Below are positions 24,066 to 52,579 of a stretch of DNA of 57,289 nucleotides, piece after piece (position 1 is the first letter of the stretch; every line of letters starts with the position of its first letter). Under the pieces are notes generated by a model. It saw only the letters and a program-made list of their open reading frames with translations, did not search any database and was not told the origin of the DNA. Source of the DNA: Candidatus Saccharimonadales bacterium (GTDB lineage: Bacteria > Patescibacteriota > Saccharimonadia > Saccharimonadales > UBA7683); contig JAXMAA010000004.1 of NCBI GenBank assembly GCA_046350615.1, forward strand, positions 1-57,289, read 5' to 3'. Both the position numbers and the translations under genes were made by a program.

Positions 24066-24140
24066 TCCGGCGTAGCTCAGCGGTAGAGCGGATGGCTGTT
24101 AACCATTAGGTCGCTGGTTCGAATCCAGCCGCCGGAGCCA
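24066..24140 (+). tRNA. tRNA-Asn(GTT) with encoded CCA
   Basis: Acceptor TCCGGCG/CGCCGGA, D arm AGCTCAGCGGTAGAGC, anticodon arm GATGG-CT GTT AA-CCATT, T loop GGTTCGAATCC, 3' GCCA. Confidence 0.97.
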
Positions 24141-47358: not shown

Positions 47359-47419
47359 GCTCATACTTTACCATAAGCATATTCATTTCGACAAATACTA
47401 TTTCTAGTGCACAAAGTGC

Positions 47420-47448
47420 TTGCGTATACACTATACCAAGCGTACAAT
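47420..47448 (+). promoter_or_regulatory. sigma70 promoter of the riboswitch transcript
   Basis: TTGCGT 47420-25, 17-nt spacer, TACAAT 47443-48. Confidence 0.75.
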
Positions 47449-47466
47449 AAATACTGTTAACAATCT

Positions 47467-47566
47467 GACCTTGGTTTGAAGTGGAAGTTTGGTGAAATTC
47501 CAACGCTGTGCCGCAACGGTTAAAGTCCGATACGCTTAGAACTTGAGAGGTCTCCCGAGCAGGAGA
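47467..47566 (+). ncRNA. Cobalamin riboswitch, compact class-II type
   Basis: GACCT/AGGTC and GGTTTGAAGTG/CGCTTAGAACT stems, GGAA, TTGG-TGAAATT-CCAA T-loop, GCTGTGCCGCAACGG, AAGTCCGATAC, P13 TCTCC-CGAGCA-GGAGA. Confidence 0.8.
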
Positions 47567-47603
47567 AAACAAAAAGTCAAAAAATAAGGGTTTGTCTTTT
47601 TAT

Positions 47604-47642
47604 AACTCCTGCACGGTATAACACCAACAGCAGGAGTTTTTT
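47604..47642 (+). terminator. Riboswitch expression-platform hairpin (terminator that also sequesters the SD)
   Basis: AACTCCTGC (47604-12) pairs with GCAGGAGTT (47630-38), followed by T-tract; AGGAG lies 7 nt before GTG 47644. Confidence 0.78.
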
Positions 47643-47643
47643 A

Positions 47644-49145
47644 GTGGAGAGGGTACTAACAACAGACCGGGTGGGTGCGGATGATTTTAGACTCCCGCAA
47701 AATGAAGCCGCAATATTTGCTGAAATTGCCGAAAACCTTGAATTGGCAGAGCCGATCATTGGGGCAGATGATTTGGTTGATCGTGTACAAATAGAGCAGC
47801 AGGCTCGTGAGTTAATAGAGAACCACGCACAAATCGAAACCTCATATAAATCTCATAAAACCTACCTTGATGACGCTCGCACATTATTATTTGAGGCGCT
47901 TACCGCTTCTGGGCACCTTTCAGTTATAGAAACAACCGGCAGTCTTGATGAAATTCATCAAACCATGCTCTCAGTGCTCCTGAATGCGTATAGTGATAGA
48001 CTACCGGCACACGAACAGCGTCGCCGTTTTATGGAAATTTGCGAGGAACTTACTATACAAGCCGTGGAACTAAGAATTGCCACAGGAGAATTGCCGGGTA
48101 CACTTGAGGTAGCGACGATCTCTGACTTTATTACCGAAGGGGCGATGAGCGAGAAGTCGGCCGAGCTCATAGGGTACCGGCCCTCGAACAAAAAGGGCAT
48201 GGTGCGCAGTAGTCAGTTGCGGGATAATGGCGATGGTACGTTTACTCGCATCTCACAGCAAGCCAGTCGGAGCAATAGTGATCCGGTCCGATCGAGTGAA
48301 TTTCTTATAGGTGCCGGGATGAGCCTACGCCCCGCCGAACATGCCGACACGTCGGTGCTTGGCACGCAGCTTATTCATGAAATGAGCGAAGGAGTTGTGG
48401 GCCTACTCAAACGGCTCGATCGGCATCATGGCGCAGGAATACGATATGGCGAACAGGCTCATGCCGAGCAAAGCGAGTACGAAGATTTGCAGCTGGAATC
48501 TGCGGAGCGTGAGCGTGTCGCACAGTGCTACGTTGAGCAATTGGCTGGTTTTACTAAACGCCTCGATAGTTTGAGAGATGGGGGCGTCGTTACTGCAAAA
48601 GAATATCAGACACAGTTTAAACAGGAGGTCGCCAATATTTTAAGAGCAATTTGTGTGATGGACCCTTCATATGCTGTAGGGTGTTTTGGTAAAAAGGCCG
48701 CAGCTGGCTTTATGAGAGCCAGTGACTTAACTGCCGCAGGAGATTAGCCTAAGCTTCCGCAGTTCTCGATTCTAATCGTGTTTTGGAAGAATCGGTTTCA
48801 TTCTGTGGTATGAGCATTTCAGCTGAAGAGGCGCAAAAAATGGGCGTAGAAGTTGACCCAATAACCAAGCTACTGAAGTTCGGTAAAGAGAATTGGCAGT
48901 GGTCTAGGGGGGTTTGTCGAGTTGAGGCCTGCCCGACTCGTCCAGGCAGAACTGATGTTGGGCCTTGCAGTGTGTGTCGAGGGTGTCAGCATGAATTTGA
49001 CCATGGTCGAAATCCGTCAAATACGTACAAGCGGATGCGTAAGTTGGGTAAAAAGGTGGCCAAAAAGCCACGACATTCTTTCAATGGCTGGCTGGGCCCA
49101 ACAAAGGAAAAGCGGCCGGTAAGAAGATTAGTAGTGCAAAAGTAA
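47644..49145 (+). CDS. Orphan protein, probably one ~500-aa gene split by a frameshift near 48745-48770; Cys-rich C-terminus
   Basis: ORF 47644..48747 ends AAGD*; another frame opens at ~48753 (AVLDSNRVLEESVSFCG...) with CRVEAC and CSVCRGC; no SD for a separate 48783 start. Confidence 0.6.
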
Positions 49146-49167
49146 CGAAGCGTGAGAAAATAGCTGC

Positions 49168-49773
49168 ATGAAGATAGGAATTTTTGCCGGTACGTTTGAC
49201 CCCATTCATAACGGACATATTGCATTTGCGGTCAAAGCAGTTTCGGAGTCTGACCTTGAAAGAGTGGTAATTGTGGCTGAGAAAAGCCCATACCGCAAAA
49301 AGCCGCTTGCCAGCTGGGATCATCGCCAAGCTATGATTGAACGCGCAACCGAAAATATACCAGAGGTCGACCACGATTATGAATTTTCAAATCAGCTTGC
49401 GCATCAACATACGATGGAGGATATGCTTTCCGTTGCGCGAAAGCATTATGGCAGTGAAAACGAGTTTTGGTTTCTGGTTGGTTCAGATGTTTTTGAGCAC
49501 ATGAAGCGGTGGCAGTCTATTACTGAGCAACATGAGTACGGTGGTTTTGTAGTCGCGCTGAGAGACGACCACAGTAAGGAGTGGCTCGATGAAAAAATAG
49601 TAGAGCTTCGGGCAAGTGGCTTCTCGCCAGTAATTCGCTTAATTGAAAATCATCATCCACACATTAGCTCAAAAAAGATTCGCGATATAATCTCTGGTCA
49701 GCTAGTTCCAGATGATTTACCAGACGCAGTCTATCAGTACAGCGTAGAGCATCAGCTGTATACTGGCGCATAA
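49168..49773 (+). CDS. nadD: Nicotinate-nucleotide adenylyltransferase-like
   Basis: IGIFAGTFDPIHNGH (HxGH), FLVGSD, ISSKKIR. Confidence 0.82.
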   Translation: MKIGIFAGTFDPIHNGHIAFAVKAVSESDLERVVIVAEKSPYRKKPLASWDHRQAMIERATENIPEVDHDYEFSNQLAHQHTMEDMLSVARKHYGSENEFWFLVGSDVFEHMKRWQSITEQHEYGGFVVALRDDHSKEWLDEKIVELRASGFSPVIRLIENHHPHISSKKIRDIISGQLVPDDLPDAVYQYSVEHQLYTGA

Positions 49774-49807
49774 CTCGGTACTTATATGCTTATGTTATAC
49801 TACCTCT

Positions 49808-51160
49808 GTGATAGCAACACAAACATATTCACTCCTCGTGATCGGAGGGTTCTTAATGGCGGGCTACTTGATTGTCCGCTTGCCATTAATCAGTCGTGCG
49901 TATCTGCCTGGATCTTTGGTGGCTGGCTTTTTATTGTTGCTGGTTGGGCCGCAGATTGGCAGTCATTTTCGGATTGGCAACTCAACTCGGCGTTTTATGA
50001 ATTTTGGAGACAACTTCAAAACAACTCATTAATGTAGTGTTTGCTTGTCTATTTTTAGCTCGTCCGCTCTTCCCGTTCAAAAAATGTGGAAGTTAGCTGG
50101 ACCACAAGTGGCATTTGGGCAAATGTTGGCGTGGGGCCAATATGCGTTAGGTGGTTTAGTAACCATGCTGATATTAATTCCATTCTTTAAAACGCGCGAC
50201 ATCACCGCTGCACTCATTGAAGTCAGCTTTGAAGGCGGTCACGGTACGGTTTCGGGCTTATCACCGGTGTTTAATAATCTTGGTTTTCATGATGGTCAAG
50301 AAATCGCACTTGGACTGGCGACGCTGAGCTTAGTCACAGCGTTGGTGAGTGGTGTATTGTTGGTGAACTGGGGTCGTCGCCGCGGGCATATAAAGGCCGT
50401 TTATAAAGCAAATCTGCGTGAGCGCATTTATCACCGCCGTATTATTCACGAGCTTAACAAACGGGGGATTAAGCTTCGTGAACACTTAACGCCAAAATGG
50501 ATCGTGAGCCATATAATTTTAATTGGTTTGAGCGTGTTTTTCGGCTGGCTTATTTATCAAGGTTTGCTCCAGATTGAAATTCATACGTGGGGTAGGCATG
50601 ATGTAACAGCACTGCGCTATGTACCGTTCTTCCCGTTCTGTATGTTTGGCGGCATGATAACCCAGATTATTTGGTCAAAACTTGGTCTTCAGACCTCTCG
50701 CCCATTGGTTGAGCTGCTGAGCAGTATTGCACTCAGTGTTTTGATTGCTACGGCGGTTGCGACAATGTCGCTCAATACAATAGGTAATAATATTGGCATC
50801 TTCTTGGTGCTGGCCGCGACCGGCATTCTCTGGATTTTATTTGGATTTCTGGTATTGGCACGGCACATGTTCAAAAAGAACTGGTTCCCAAATGCCATTG
50901 TTAATGCGGCGCAGAGTATGGGCATGACCGCCACCGGCTTACTGTTTCTTCACATGGTTGACCCAAATGATAAAACTAACGCTGCCGAAAGCTTCGGGTT
51001 TAAGCAGCTGATGTTTGAACCCTTTGTCGGCGGTGGTATCATCACCGCCCTTTCCATGCCCGCTATTATCGCCATTGGTTTACCAATGTTCACCGCCATC
51101 GCTGCCGGCATCTGCGCCTTCTGGATGATCACCGGCATCCTCTACTTCGGTAGAAAATAA
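49808..51160 (+). pseudogene. GltS-like sodium:glutamate symporter, interrupted near 50000-50050
   Basis: YLPGSLVAG.LLLLVGPQ, EVSFEGGHGT, QSMGMTATGL.FL.MVDP; N-terminal part is in a separate ORF. Confidence 0.8.
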
Positions 51161-51175
51161 GATAGAATAAAAGTG

Positions 51176-51823
51176 ATGCAAGCGATAATTTATTCACACG
51201 GATTTGGTGTTCAAAAGGACGACAGGGGATTATTCACTGATATCGCCGAAGCCCTACCTAGTTTTGAGCACGTACAGTTTGATTATAATCAGATAAATAT
51301 TAAAGAGAACACGCTCACCGCTGCAACGCTCAGTCAACAGGCGGGCCTATTAAGCGAACAGATAAGGCTGGCTCGCACAAAATATGAAACCGTTGATCTC
51401 ATTTGCCATTCTCAGGGCTGCTTAGCGGCAGCACTTGCCAACCCAAGAGGTGTGCGCAGTATCATCTTTCTTGCTCCGCCCGACAATACCGATATTGACC
51501 AATTTGCGGACCTGTTTCGTAATCGACCGAACAGCACTATCAATTTTAAGGCTATCTCAAAAGTAACAAGAAGAGATGGAAGTACTACGATCATCCCAGC
51601 ACAGTACTGGTCAAGCCTGGGTAGTATTGATGCAATGGAATGCTATCAGGCACTCGCTCAAATGAGTAAACTCACGATTATTACGGCCGCAAATGACGAA
51701 ATTTTAGGCGAAACCCATTTCAACATCGTACCCTCAAAAGCAATAACACTTCCAGCCAATCACGACTTTACCGAAAACGCGCGAGCTGCAGTGATCGGGA
51801 TGGTGCAAGCAATCTTGCAATAA
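51176..51823 (+). CDS. alpha/beta hydrolase
   Basis: SHGFG, LICHSQG (GxSxG-like), LAPP, NHDF. Confidence 0.78.
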   Translation: MQAIIYSHGFGVQKDDRGLFTDIAEALPSFEHVQFDYNQINIKENTLTAATLSQQAGLLSEQIRLARTKYETVDLICHSQGCLAAALANPRGVRSIIFLAPPDNTDIDQFADLFRNRPNSTINFKAISKVTRRDGSTTIIPAQYWSSLGSIDAMECYQALAQMSKLTIITAANDEILGETHFNIVPSKAITLPANHDFTENARAAVIGMVQAILQ

Positions 51824-51871
51824 TGACAGTATTATTGCTGAAGGATGAAACTTCAGCAGGGTAGCGGTTGT

Positions 51872-52579
51872 TTATTGTTTTTTCGCTTGAATAATCAAGA
51901 ATTGTGGTACATGTGCGTTTCTGGAACGAGACTTACTGTTTTTTGCAAGCTGTGGTTCGTTAACATGAGTAATCACGCAACCGAGTGATATAAGGTTATT
52001 CAGGTAGGTTGAGATCGGTCTCATAAAAAGGCGACCGTAACGTTGCTCTGTGGGGTTGGGGTTAAAGTATTCTCTTATTTCTACATGCCCAAGCTTTTGC
52101 CAGTCCACCTCAGAGCCCGGGAATGCCGGGTGCAGAATAGATATGATGATGTCACCGCCTTTTTTGAGGGCCCGTACACAGTTTTTTAAGGATGCAAAGT
52201 AGTCGGGAATATCCATCAAGACATTAATAACAAGAATTTTATCAAAGTTCTCAGCGAAATCTAGATTGGCAAGATCATGCTGAAAGTAAGTGATGCCCAA
52301 ACTTTCTTCTCGCTCTTTCCTAGCACAATACTCAAAGAGGCTTGCCGCGGGTTCTACGCCAGTTACAATTCCTCCTGCACGCGCCAACTTTCGCGATAAG
52401 TAGCCGTTGCCACAACCGGCATCTAGAATATTCAGCCCTTTCGTAGCTCCCAACATTTGAAATATAACGGGGTCAATAAGTTCTTGTCGAGCGAAGTCTC
52501 CATCCTCGCCAAACCGTTTAAGATCTTCCTCGCTAAACTCGGACCAGCTGTCAATCACTGCTTTATTTGATATGTTCAT
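51872..52579 (-). CDS. Class I SAM-dependent methyltransferase
   Basis: ILDAGCGNGYLSRKLA, TGVE, LKKGG..IISILHP. Confidence 0.9.
   Translation of the reverse strand: MNISNKAVIDSWSEFSEEDLKRFGEDGDFARQELIDPVIFQMLGATKGLNILDAGCGNGYLSRKLARAGGIVTGVEPAASLFEYCARKEREESLGITYFQHDLANLDFAENFDKILVINVLMDIPDYFASLKNCVRALKKGGDIIISILHPAFPGSEVDWQKLGHVEIREYFNPNPTEQRYGRLFMRPISTYLNNLISLGCVITHVNEPQLAKNSKSRSRNAHVPQFLIIQAKKQ

What the first reader, a model, noticed from the sequence alone, without database searches (positions are those of the whole stretch)
47420..47646. Compact class-II cobalamin riboswitch with a complete switching mechanism in a CPR genome
Seen: promoter, a ~100-nt aptamer with the B12-box and T-loop elements, and P13 loop CGAGCA partly complementary to L5 TGTGCC. 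GCAGGAG (47559-65) can pair with CTCCTGC (47606-12), the 5' arm of a terminator whose 3' arm holds the SD of the next gene. Known: class-II switches act through an L5-L13 kissing loop. Inference: ligand locks L13, the terminator/anti-SD forms and the gene is OFF; without ligand the gene is ON. No B12 synthesis, transport or B12-dependent gene lies in the window, so the cell may use cobalamin as a cue for host contact or host state.
Basis: partly seen in the sequence, partly recalled or inferred. Interest (0 to 1): 0.9.

Follow-up and report, generated by a model that had tools for sequence, protein, structure and literature searches.

The report
B12 riboswitch before orphan Saccharibacteria gene
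This is a genuine vitamin-B12-sensing RNA switch of an already known class and mechanism; it is ordinary as an RNA, serves a cell whose only ribonucleotide reductase needs B12, and its real interest is the unknown protein it controls.

Summary
Rfam AdoCbl-II (RF01689) hits 47472-47544 at 38.2 bits (cut-off 36.5). It is the only cobalamin-type aptamer in the 1.0-Mb genome.

A model of aptamer plus P13, built from relatives, scores the window at 84 bits. It matches all 93 related loci, and P3, P4, P5, P6 and P13 all covary.

L13 plus the 3' arm of P13 (47555-65) can pair with the terminator's 5' arm (47606-16). The terminator's 3' arm carries the SD, 7 nt before GTG 47644. The two states are near iso-energetic. 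This is the KL-P13-antiterminator-terminator design shown experimentally for the P. megaterium metE switch.

The 'host cue' inference is not supported. The genome's only detected ribonucleotide reductase is B12-dependent NrdJ. Of 89 switch-bearing genomes in the class, 88 have NrdJ.

The controlled gene is an orphan with no known family or fold. It lies behind the switch in 67 of 92 loci. In this assembly it is split into two ORFs.

Verdict: a new member of a known kind.

The parts
47420..47448 (+). Putative sigma-70-type promoter: -35 TTGCGT (47420-25), 17-nt spacer, -10 TACAAT (47443-48)
   Evidence: Read from the sequence. TTGC-N17-TACAAT is conserved in three species of the genus while the spacer varies. 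The consensus scanner did not call it, because the -35 box matches at only 3 of 6 positions. The transcription start is not mapped.
47469..47549 (+). Class-II cobalamin aptamer. P1 is 47469-76 with 47540-49. P3 is 47479-83 with 47533-37. P4 is 47489-92 with 47500-03, with the L4 T-loop UGAAAUU at 47493-99. P5 is 47507-08 with 47514-15. P6 is 47517-19 with 47527-29.
   Evidence: RF01689 hits 47472-47544 at 38.2 bits against a cut-off of 36.5. Custom model R1 gives 84.3 bits. P3, P4, P5 and P6 all show changes on both sides across 93 loci.
47509..47513 (+). L5, UGCCG: the aptamer's half of the kissing loop
   Evidence: Five-nucleotide loop closed by U-A and G-C pairs. The closing U-A becomes A-U in 4 loci. 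L5 is invariant in about 79 of 93 loci. The variants UCGCG and UACCG occur with different L13 loops.
47551..47566 (+). P13 hairpin: stem UCUCC/GGAGA and loop L13 CGAGCA (47556-61). The kissing-loop pairs are 47509-47561, 47510-47560, 47511-47559, 47512-47557 and 47513-47556. A47558 is bulged.
   Evidence: All four modelled stem pairs covary. The loop is conserved in more than 60 loci. A random 6-mer reaches 5 pairs with UGCCG in 0.6% of trials. The hairpin alone is only -6.1 kcal/mol.
47571..47601 (+). Spacer hairpin between P13 and the terminator. It would cap the antiterminator helix.
   Evidence: Part of the minimum-free-energy fold in both constrained states. A similar hairpin is present in two species of the same genus. 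An equivalent structured region is described for the P. megaterium metE switch (PMC10327014).
47555..47616 (+). Antiterminator (ON state): 47555-65 (CCGAGCAGGAG, which is L13 plus the 3' arm of P13) pairs with 47606-16 (CUCCUGCACGG, the 5' arm of the terminator). This gives 10 pairs and one A-A mismatch.
   Evidence: Duplex energy is -17.8 to -18.2 kcal/mol, z = -5.2 against shuffles of the downstream region. The constrained ON state is -23.8 kcal/mol against -25.9 for OFF. In 38 of 78 related loci the best partner of L13 plus the 3' arm lies in the 5' arm of a hairpin followed by a U-run.
47604..47642 (+). Terminator and anti-SD hairpin (OFF state): 47604-12 pairs with 47630-38, an inner 3 bp closes the loop, and the U-run is 47637-42
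   Evidence: ViennaRNA gives -15.0 kcal/mol. The sequence is identical in the sister species, and a covarying version exists in a third species. The terminator scanner did not call it because the loop exceeds 8 nt. Termination has not been tested.
47632..47646 (+). Shine-Dalgarno AGGAG (47632-36), inside the terminator's 3' arm, and start codon GTG (47644-46)
   Evidence: Read from the sequence. There are 7 nt between the SD and the start codon. Relatives have the same layout: hairpin 3' arm, U-run, then ATG or GTG.
47644..48747 (+). Controlled gene, N-terminal 367 codons of an orphan protein family (full length 440-566 aa elsewhere)
   Evidence: No Pfam or NCBIfam family. There are 61 homologues, all unnamed, and 432 clusters at E<=1e-3 among 1.84 billion representatives. 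The AlphaFold model has pLDDT 88.9, with no Foldseek match at E<=1e-3 in PDB or BFVD.
48746..48752 (+). Lesion that splits the gene in this assembly: one base missing after 48746, and TAA at 48750-52 where relatives have GGT
   Evidence: Alignment with the intact 509-codon gene of the sister species. A contig of a related strain in a wastewater run carries the extra base and GGT. No run of the same strain was found, so a true mutation and an assembly error cannot be told apart.
48783..49145 (+). C-terminal Cys-rich (zinc-ribbon-like) part of the same gene, here a separate 120-codon ORF in another frame
   Evidence: It aligns to residues about 351-469 of the family profile and to the C-terminus of the intact sister gene. 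The invariant residues are CG (388-389), C430, C445 and C448.
49168..49773 (+). nadD-like nucleotidyltransferase, probably in the same transcription unit
   Evidence: PF01467 at E 2.4e-19, and TIGR00482 at 106 bits, just under its cut-off of 112. It directly follows the orphan gene in this family's close relatives.

Best explanation
The leader at 47420-47646 is a corrinoid-responsive OFF riboswitch of the class-II (AdoCbl-II, env8-type) cobalamin family. It couples to its gene through a kissing loop, the P13 hairpin, an antiterminator and a terminator.

Shown by sequence and comparison:
- a four-way-junction aptamer;
- a 5-nt loop L5 that is complementary, with one bulged A, to the loop of the next hairpin, P13;
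- L13 plus the 3' arm of P13 repeats the 3' arm of a downstream hairpin+U6. Either segment can therefore pair with that hairpin's 5' arm;
- the SD sits in the hairpin's 3' arm.

Inferred mechanism: bound corrinoid bridges L5 and L13 and locks the weak P13 hairpin. The terminator/anti-SD hairpin then forms, transcription stops just before the start codon, and any read-through mRNA has its SD masked. Without ligand, the emerging 5' arm of the terminator invades P13 and forms the stronger antiterminator. RNA polymerase reads through and the SD is free.

Inferred physiological sense: the cell cannot make B12, yet the only ribonucleotide reductase detected in the genome is B12-dependent NrdJ. The switch would therefore turn on a B12-starvation gene when the corrinoid runs low. 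That gene is an orphan protein, probably co-transcribed with a nadD-like gene. Its function is unknown, and in this assembly its frame is broken.
For: Family membership:
- RF01689 scores above its gathering score, and it is the only such hit in the genome.
- The custom model gives 84 bits in the window and matches all 93 related loci.
- Every helix, including P13, covaries.

Kissing loop:
- UGCCG pairs with CG(A)GCA in 5 Watson-Crick pairs. A random 6-mer reaches this in 0.6% of trials.
- Other lineages pair UCGCG with CG(C)CGAA and UACCG with CGG(AU)UA.
- An unpaired nucleotide in the kissing loop is a family trait (PMC5028336).

Switch:
- The antiterminator duplex is -17.8 kcal/mol (z -5.2) against -6.1 for P13 alone.
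- The OFF state is -25.9 and the ON state -23.8 kcal/mol.
- The same design is seen in 38 of 78 relatives, with sequences that change together.
- The identical logic was proven by compensatory mutations in the P. megaterium metE switch (PMC10327014).

B12 context:
- NrdJ is present. No B12-binding domain (PF02310), NrdD, DUF4430 or PduO-type adenosyltransferase was found in the genome.
- 88 of 89 switch-bearing genomes have NrdJ, against 85 of 312 others.
- 67 of 92 switches precede the orphan family, about 11 precede small membrane-anchored proteins (DUF4430 confirmed in 5 of the 6 scanned), and 1 precedes a class I reductase.
- 23 of 24 orphan genes found by protein similarity alone have the switch upstream.
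Against: - No ligand binding, termination or expression has been measured.
- The Rfam score clears its cut-off by only 1.7 bits. The Rfam alignment also deletes 7 model positions in J1/3, so the second T-loop is uncertain.
- L5 and L13 are almost invariant within the order. Kissing-loop covariation therefore rests on three sequence types, and some loops of the other group pair only 4 of 5 in their own register.
- The terminator has an unusually long loop, and the consensus scanner called neither it nor the promoter.
- The controlled gene is interrupted in this assembly, so the switch may govern a pseudogene here.
- Which corrinoid is sensed cannot be read from the sequence. Class-II members range from MeCbl-selective to AdoCbl-selective (PMC6158498).
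- The NrdJ association is not corrected for shared ancestry.
Confidence: 0.85

Rival explanations
1. One reading: the cell has no use for B12 and reads cobalamin as a signal of host contact or host state.
For: No B12 gene lies in the stretch of the window around the switch that was annotated here. The controlled gene has no recognisable B12-related family.
Against: The genome encodes NrdJ as the only ribonucleotide reductase detected. The switch is nearly confined to genomes with NrdJ. In sister lineages it controls B12-binding-domain proteins and a B12-independent reductase, which are classic B12 regulon members.
Confidence: 0.04
2. Control is purely translational. The downstream hairpin only masks the SD, as in env8-type class-II switches, and does not terminate transcription.
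For: The SD lies in the hairpin's 3' arm. The hairpin's loop is long for an intrinsic terminator, and the scanner did not call it. A metatranscriptome contig of a related strain runs from the aptamer through the hairpin into the ORF.
Against: A 9-bp GC-rich stem is followed directly by U6. Relatives have canonical short-loop hairpins plus U-runs at the same place. The two modes are not exclusive, and one read-through RNA contig does not exclude termination.
Confidence: 0.12
3. In this strain the switch is a relic. Its gene is a pseudogene, so the RNA is intact but no longer has a working target.
For: There is a 1-nt deletion and an in-frame TAA at 48746-52 relative to the intact sister gene and to a related strain's contig. 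The next membrane-protein gene is also frame-broken relative to the sister species.
Against: The leader is nearly identical to that of the sister species, and both ORF pieces remain open. All seven 1-nt differences over 4.5 kb are deletions in this assembly, which looks like assembly error. The nadD-like gene downstream is intact.
Confidence: 0.2
4. The Rfam hit is a chance match just above threshold, and the hairpins are an ordinary terminator of nothing in particular.
For: 38.2 bits against a cut-off of 36.5. Several non-canonical pairs are flagged in the Rfam alignment.
Against: There are 93 related loci with covarying helices and a conserved P13. The switch is upstream of 23 of 24 independently found homologues of the gene.
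Confidence: 0.01

Closest known systems
Class-II cobalamin riboswitches (Rfam RF01689 AdoCbl-II, formerly AdoCbl-variant; prototype env8HyCbl / env8Cbl-IIa)
   Same: Small four-way-junction aptamer without the large P6 extension. Conserved L4 T-loop (GUGAAAUUC). Conserved ACGGU-AAGUCCGA core. An L5-L13 kissing loop interrupted by unpaired nucleotide(s), which locks the P13 hairpin when the corrinoid binds.
   Different: In env8 the ribosome-binding site lies in L13/P13 itself and control is translational (PMC5028336). Here P13 carries no SD and acts instead as the competitor of a downstream terminator/anti-SD hairpin. The kissing loop here is 5 Watson-Crick pairs with one bulged A, rather than an A-G pair plus two bulged purines. 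J1/3 is short or differently placed.
Priestia megaterium metE corrinoid riboswitch expression platform (PMC10327014)
   Same: The kissing loop stabilises P13. [quoted passage not shown] A structured spacer between P13 and the terminator tops the antiterminator. The antiterminator is more stable than P13 alone.
   Different: The paper as read here does not state that switch's aptamer class, and its controlled gene (metE) has a known function. Here the aptamer is class II, the antiterminator also includes the L13 nucleotides themselves, and the terminator's 3' arm doubles as SD mask.
Class-I cobalamin riboswitch (Rfam RF00174)
   Same: Same clan, core and kissing-loop principle. A weak match covers 47444-47585.
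   Different: It scores 27.5 bits, under the gathering score of 31.5. The window's P6 is only 3 bp with a 7-nt loop, so no large P6 extension is present.

Membership tests
Rfam RF01689 AdoCbl-II (class-II cobalamin riboswitch) | Covariance-model score at or above the curated gathering score | tested here: met
   38.2 bits against 36.5, full-length match to model positions 1-81. The margin is small.
Rfam RF01689 AdoCbl-II (class-II cobalamin riboswitch) | Four-way junction of P3-P6, with helices supported by compensatory change | tested here: met
   On 93 loci, P3 has 4 of 4 pairs with changes on both sides, P4 has 3 of 4, P5 has 1 of 2 and P6 has 1 of 3. Cells are 82-100% paired, and 0 of 500 shuffles reach the observed score.
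Rfam RF01689 AdoCbl-II (class-II cobalamin riboswitch) | Conserved L4 T-loop and conserved core sequence around P6 and J6/3 | tested here: met
   The window reads GGUGAAAUUCC and ACGGUUAAAGUCCGA, matching the model consensus. These columns are invariant in the 36-sequence alignment.
Rfam RF01689 AdoCbl-II (class-II cobalamin riboswitch) | Second T-loop in J1/3 that contacts J6/3 (a ligand-selectivity determinant) | tested here: inconclusive
   The Rfam alignment deletes 7 model positions here. A candidate UUUGA lies at 47475-79, but it overlaps my P1 assignment (47473-76 with 47540-43), so the two readings compete. J1/3 has no clear consensus in the family (PMC6158498).
Rfam RF01689 AdoCbl-II (class-II cobalamin riboswitch) | No large P6 extension or peripheral domain (this separates class II from class I) | tested here: met
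   P6 is 3 bp with a 7-nt loop in the window. RF00174 scores below its cut-off. Many relatives do carry a short inserted hairpin in L6.
Rfam RF01689 AdoCbl-II (class-II cobalamin riboswitch) | L5-L13 kissing loop with at least one unpaired nucleotide, presented on a stem-loop | tested here: met
   UGCCG (47509-13) pairs with CG(A)GCA (47556-61) on a covarying 4-5 bp stem. The family trait is taken from PMC5028336. Only complementarity is shown, not formation of the loop.
Rfam RF01689 AdoCbl-II (class-II cobalamin riboswitch) | Binds a cobalamin or corrinoid | not testable with these tools
   This needs in-line probing, ITC or a reporter assay.
KL-P13-antiterminator-terminator platform (P. megaterium metE type, PMC10327014) | [quoted passage not shown] | tested here: met
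   47555-65 pairs with 47606-16: 10 pairs plus one mismatch, -17.8 kcal/mol, z -5.2.
KL-P13-antiterminator-terminator platform (P. megaterium metE type, PMC10327014) | The antiterminator is more stable than P13 alone, so P13 needs the kissing loop to persist | tested here: met
   -17.8 to -18.2 kcal/mol against -6.1 kcal/mol. These are computed energies only.
KL-P13-antiterminator-terminator platform (P. megaterium metE type, PMC10327014) | A functional intrinsic terminator (hairpin plus U-tract) downstream | tested here: inconclusive
   There is a 9-bp stem, -15 kcal/mol, followed by U6. But the loop is 13-17 nt and the scanner made no call. Relatives have canonical versions.

The most novel reading that the evidence does not exclude
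The switch marks a B12-starvation response peculiar to Saccharibacteria. Its main effector is the orphan protein of 440-566 aa with an invariant CG motif and a C-terminal zinc ribbon. It has a confidently predicted fold with no match in PDB or BFVD. The protein would perform a B12-related function not yet described. These cells depend on NrdJ alone, so the function could be a corrinoid-handling or scavenging step, or a B12-independent route to deoxynucleotides. The conserved coupling to a nadD-like nucleotidyltransferase might be part of it.
Probability: 0.5. Interest if true: 0.75.

Novelty: new member of a known kind. Interest (0 to 1): 0.3.

Why it matters
As an RNA this adds nothing new in kind. 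Both the aptamer class and the switching logic are already described and experimentally dissected.

It matters in two modest ways:
- It shows that reduced-genome Saccharibacteria that keep B12-dependent NrdJ as their only detected reductase also keep a B12 sensor. About a fifth of the sampled class has one. That fits real dependence on corrinoids obtained from outside the cell.
- The switch is a reliable flag for an uncharacterised protein family (432 clusters) with no recognisable fold. A conserved riboswitch in front of an unknown gene is one of the better pointers to a missing piece of vitamin metabolism.

Tried and rejected
- The consensus promoter/terminator scan called neither element. 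I kept both on comparative grounds.
- RF00174 scored below its cut-off.
- Foldseek of the pLDDT-88.9 model against PDB and BFVD gave no hit at E<=1e-3. A profile search against PDB sequences returned only a chance FliG fragment. Pfam and NCBIfam found nothing on the orphan or on ten distant members.
- The class-level genome search with the narrow orphan profile A1 found only 30 genomes, because the family is too diverged. No switch-versus-orphan table could be made that way. I replaced it with an iterative HMM on the first ORF behind each switch (67 of 92) and with the converse test (23 of 24).
- MAFFT and Infernal both place the P13 loop of the second lineage one column off. The formal pair count therefore shows those 13 sequences as unpaired in the kissing loop. 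A flexible-bulge score separates cognate from swapped L5/L13 pairs only weakly, 5 against 4-4.5.
- Laying public runs found related strains only, at most 37% of sampled words. The frameshift at 48746 could not be settled.
- Literature searches for Saccharibacteria or Patescibacteria together with cobalamin riboswitch found nothing.
- I considered an activating switch of the A. halodurans cobT type and rejected it. There P13 shares sequence with the terminator's 5' arm. Here P13 repeats the terminator's 3' arm, which gives repression.
Full report
**The observation.** GCAGGAG lies at 47559-65 and CTCCTGC at 47606-12. A second GCAGGAG lies at 47630-36, followed by six T. GTG at 47644 opens a 367-codon ORF.

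Rfam's covariance models give one riboswitch hit in the whole window: RF01689 (AdoCbl-II) at 47472-47544. It scores 38.2 bits against a gathering score of 36.5, over the full model. It is the only such hit in the 1.0-Mb, 99%-complete genome. The class-I model RF00174 reaches only 27.5 bits against a cut-off of 31.5.

**Is it more than a marginal hit?** Yes.
- Scanning 401 genomes of the same class found RF01689 matches at E<=1e-3 in 89 genomes. Of these, 39 were above the gathering score.
- I oriented all 92 related loci. They share the aptamer and also a following hairpin with the loop CGAGCA.
- A covariance model built from 36 compact examples covers P3, P4, P5, P6 and P13. It scores the window at 84.3 bits (47467-47567) and finds exactly one match in every one of the 93 sources.
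- On that alignment 92.4% of pair cells are standard pairs, against 74.9% after shuffling. Sliding the partners gives 36-52%. Every helix has pairs changed on both sides, and all four modelled P13 pairs covary.

**The kissing loop.** P5 is two pairs, U-A and G-C. The U-A becomes A-U in four loci. P5 closes a five-nucleotide loop, UGCCG (47509-13).

The P13 loop CGAGCA (47556-61) pairs with all five of these nucleotides if A47558 is bulged. The pairs are U47509-A47561, G47510-C47560, C47511-G47559, C47512-G47557 and G47513-C47556.

A random 6-mer reaches five pairs with UGCCG in 0.6% of trials. This L5/L13 pair occurs in about 65 loci. A second lineage has UCGCG with CG(C)CGAA and similar loops, and one locus has UACCG with CGG(AU)UA. 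This covariation is suggestive rather than strong. Some loops of the second lineage pair only 4 of 5, and swapped combinations score only slightly lower.

An interrupted kissing loop is a documented trait of the family. Polaski et al. report strictly conserved unpaired nucleotides in the L5-L13 helix of AdoCbl-variant switches, and at least one unpaired nucleotide in all cobalamin switches (PMC5028336).

**The switch.** P13 alone is weak, at -6.1 kcal/mol. The segment 47555-65 comprises L13 and the 3' arm of P13. It can pair with 47606-16, the 5' arm of the downstream hairpin, in 10 pairs with one A-A mismatch. The energy is -17.8 to -18.2 kcal/mol, z = -5.2 against shuffles.

That downstream hairpin pairs 47604-12 with 47630-38 (-15 kcal/mol) and is followed by U6. 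AGGAG at 47632-36, in its 3' arm, lies 7 nt before the GTG.

Constrained folds of 47545-47643 give -25.9 kcal/mol for P13 plus terminator, and -23.8 for the antiterminator. The platform is therefore close to bistable.

In 38 of 78 related loci the best partner of L13 plus the 3' arm again lies in the 5' arm of a hairpin followed by a U-run. The sequences change together. For example, CGAGCAAGAG goes with CCUUGCUC and CGAGCAGG goes with CCUGCUCG. In a third species of the genus the antiterminator is a perfect 11-bp helix.

This is the model proven by disruptive and compensatory mutations for the P. megaterium metE corrinoid switch. There the kissing loop stabilises P13. [quoted passage not shown] A structured spacer tops the antiterminator (PMC10327014). 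The window has such a spacer hairpin at 47571-47601.

The activating variant described in the same paper needs P13 to share sequence with the terminator's 5' arm. Here P13 repeats the 3' arm, so ligand should repress. Whether control is mainly by termination or by SD masking cannot be told from sequence. Both are encoded.

**Promoter.** TTGCGT-N17-TACAAT (47420-48) was not called by the scanner, because the -35 box matches at only 3 of 6 positions. But TTGC and GCGTACAATAA are conserved in three species of the genus while the spacer varies.

A metatranscriptome contig of a related strain covers 47470-47684. This is weak evidence that the leader is transcribed and can be read through.

Inventory of this genome:
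- The whole genome holds one ribonucleotide-reductase barrel, on contig C1.
- Its 924-residue product matches NF005122, vitamin-B12-dependent ribonucleotide reductase, at 1384 bits against a cut-off of 859. It matches TIGR02504 (NrdJ) at 604 bits against a cut-off of 400.
- There is no class III reductase and no B12-binding domain of the MetH/mutase type.
- There is no DUF4430 protein and no PduO-type adenosyltransferase.

By this inventory, de novo deoxynucleotide synthesis in this cell depends on adenosylcobalamin.

Association across the class: 86 of the 89 switch-bearing genomes have NrdJ at E<1e-160. Two have it at 1e-136, and one has only a fragment. Overall, 173 of 401 genomes are above the cut-off. 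Fisher's exact p is about 1e-34 to 1e-38, uncorrected for shared ancestry.

What the switch controls elsewhere in the class:
- the orphan family in 67 of 92 loci;
- small membrane-anchored proteins in about 11 loci; 5 of the 6 scanned carry DUF4430;
- a class I reductase with an ATP-cone in one locus.

DUF4430 is the domain at the C-terminus of transcobalamins (PMC4350170). These are the usual members of a B12 regulon. The switch therefore belongs to ordinary B12 economy.

**The controlled gene.**
- The 367-codon ORF has no Pfam or NCBIfam family.
- Its 61 database homologues are all unnamed and 437-566 residues long, apart from one 216-residue fragment.
- A profile search over 1.84 billion representatives finds 432 clusters.
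- An AlphaFold model of the 87%-identical full-length protein is confident (pLDDT 88.9, pTM 0.84). It has no Foldseek match at E<=1e-3 in PDB or BFVD.
- Invariant residues include a CG motif and three cysteines of a C-terminal zinc-ribbon-like tail.
- Of 24 homologous genes found by protein similarity alone, 23 have the switch within 400 nt upstream. The exception has only 78 nt of upstream sequence.
- In this subfamily a nadD-like gene follows directly.

Function remains unknown. The repression logic fits a B12-starvation role, either acquisition or handling of corrinoids or a B12-sparing activity, better than a role that needs B12.

**A peculiarity of this window.** The gene is split here. 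Relative to the intact 509-codon gene of the sister species, one base is missing after 48746. TAA replaces GGT at 48750-52. The Cys-rich tail therefore stands as a separate 120-codon ORF (48783-49145) in another frame.

A contig of a related strain in a wastewater run has the intact version. The next gene, a membrane protein, is also frame-broken here. All seven single-base differences over 4.5 kb are deletions in this assembly. That pattern suggests assembly error, but no run of the same strain was available to decide.

**Comparison and verdict.** This is a member of Rfam RF01689. The tested features were met, except that the J1/3 T-loop is inconclusive and ligand binding cannot be tested here. 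It works like the P. megaterium metE platform.

It differs from the env8 prototype in two ways. P13 holds no ribosome-binding site. The kissing loop is five Watson-Crick pairs with one bulged A. These are variations within a family already known to be diverse in its platforms (PMC10327014).

Earlier follow-ups in this scan reached the same reading on other Saccharibacteria genomes. I treated those as leads and re-derived the points here.

It is a new member of a known kind and of low interest as an RNA. The orphan protein behind it is the real lead.

Noticed in passing
window 48746-48752 and 48783-49145: The riboswitch-controlled gene is split into a 367-codon and a 120-codon ORF. One base is missing and a TAA is present, whereas the sister species and a related strain's contig have an intact frame. 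This is either a pseudogene or an assembly error.
   Followed up: partly
window 49786-51160: A 472-aa membrane protein of the sister species is broken into at least three frames here (ORFs 49786-50037, 49808-50032 and 50045-51160). Over 47400-51900 all seven 1-nt indels relative to the sister species are deletions in this assembly.
   Followed up: partly
L009, L011, L017, L019, L058, L067, L074, L080, L083, L095, L096 (first ORF behind the switch): In other lineages of the class the same riboswitch precedes small membrane-anchored proteins. Five of the six scanned carry DUF4430, the transcobalamin-type domain, so they are likely surface B12 binders; L083 gave no Pfam hit and five were not scanned. 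The window's genome has no DUF4430 protein.
   Followed up: partly
L097 (genome G205, second riboswitch): One genome has two switches. One precedes a class I ribonucleotide reductase with an ATP-cone, the classic B12-independent back-up of NrdJ.
   Followed up: partly
L006, L007, L010, L013, L014, L021, L022, L024, L051 (and L039 for a full-length copy): In a second family of the class (larger genomes, 1.0-1.7 Mb) the switch precedes long, very acidic, low-complexity proteins. One is 790 aa and has no Cys-rich tail. The orphan-family profile did not recognise them.
   Followed up: no
window 47457-47463 and the 5' ends of many related loci: The motif TTAACAA lies just upstream of, or at the start of, most aptamers in the order. 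In most loci it seems to be the 5' strand of an AU-rich P1. In the window it sits upstream of a different, GC-richer P1.
   Followed up: no
window 49168-49773; L035 2149-2748; L036 1545-2144; L125 9643-10245; L126 9486-10085: A nadD-like nucleotidyltransferase directly follows the orphan gene in this subfamily, overlapping it by 4 nt in the sister species. An NAD-synthesis enzyme may therefore sit under B12 control.
   Followed up: partly
window 47470-47684: A contig from a wastewater metatranscriptome run (a related strain, 8 differences) spans the aptamer, the terminator and the first 40 nt of the ORF.
   Followed up: no
window 24066-24137: A tRNA gene (Rfam tRNA, 73.5 bits).
   Followed up: no
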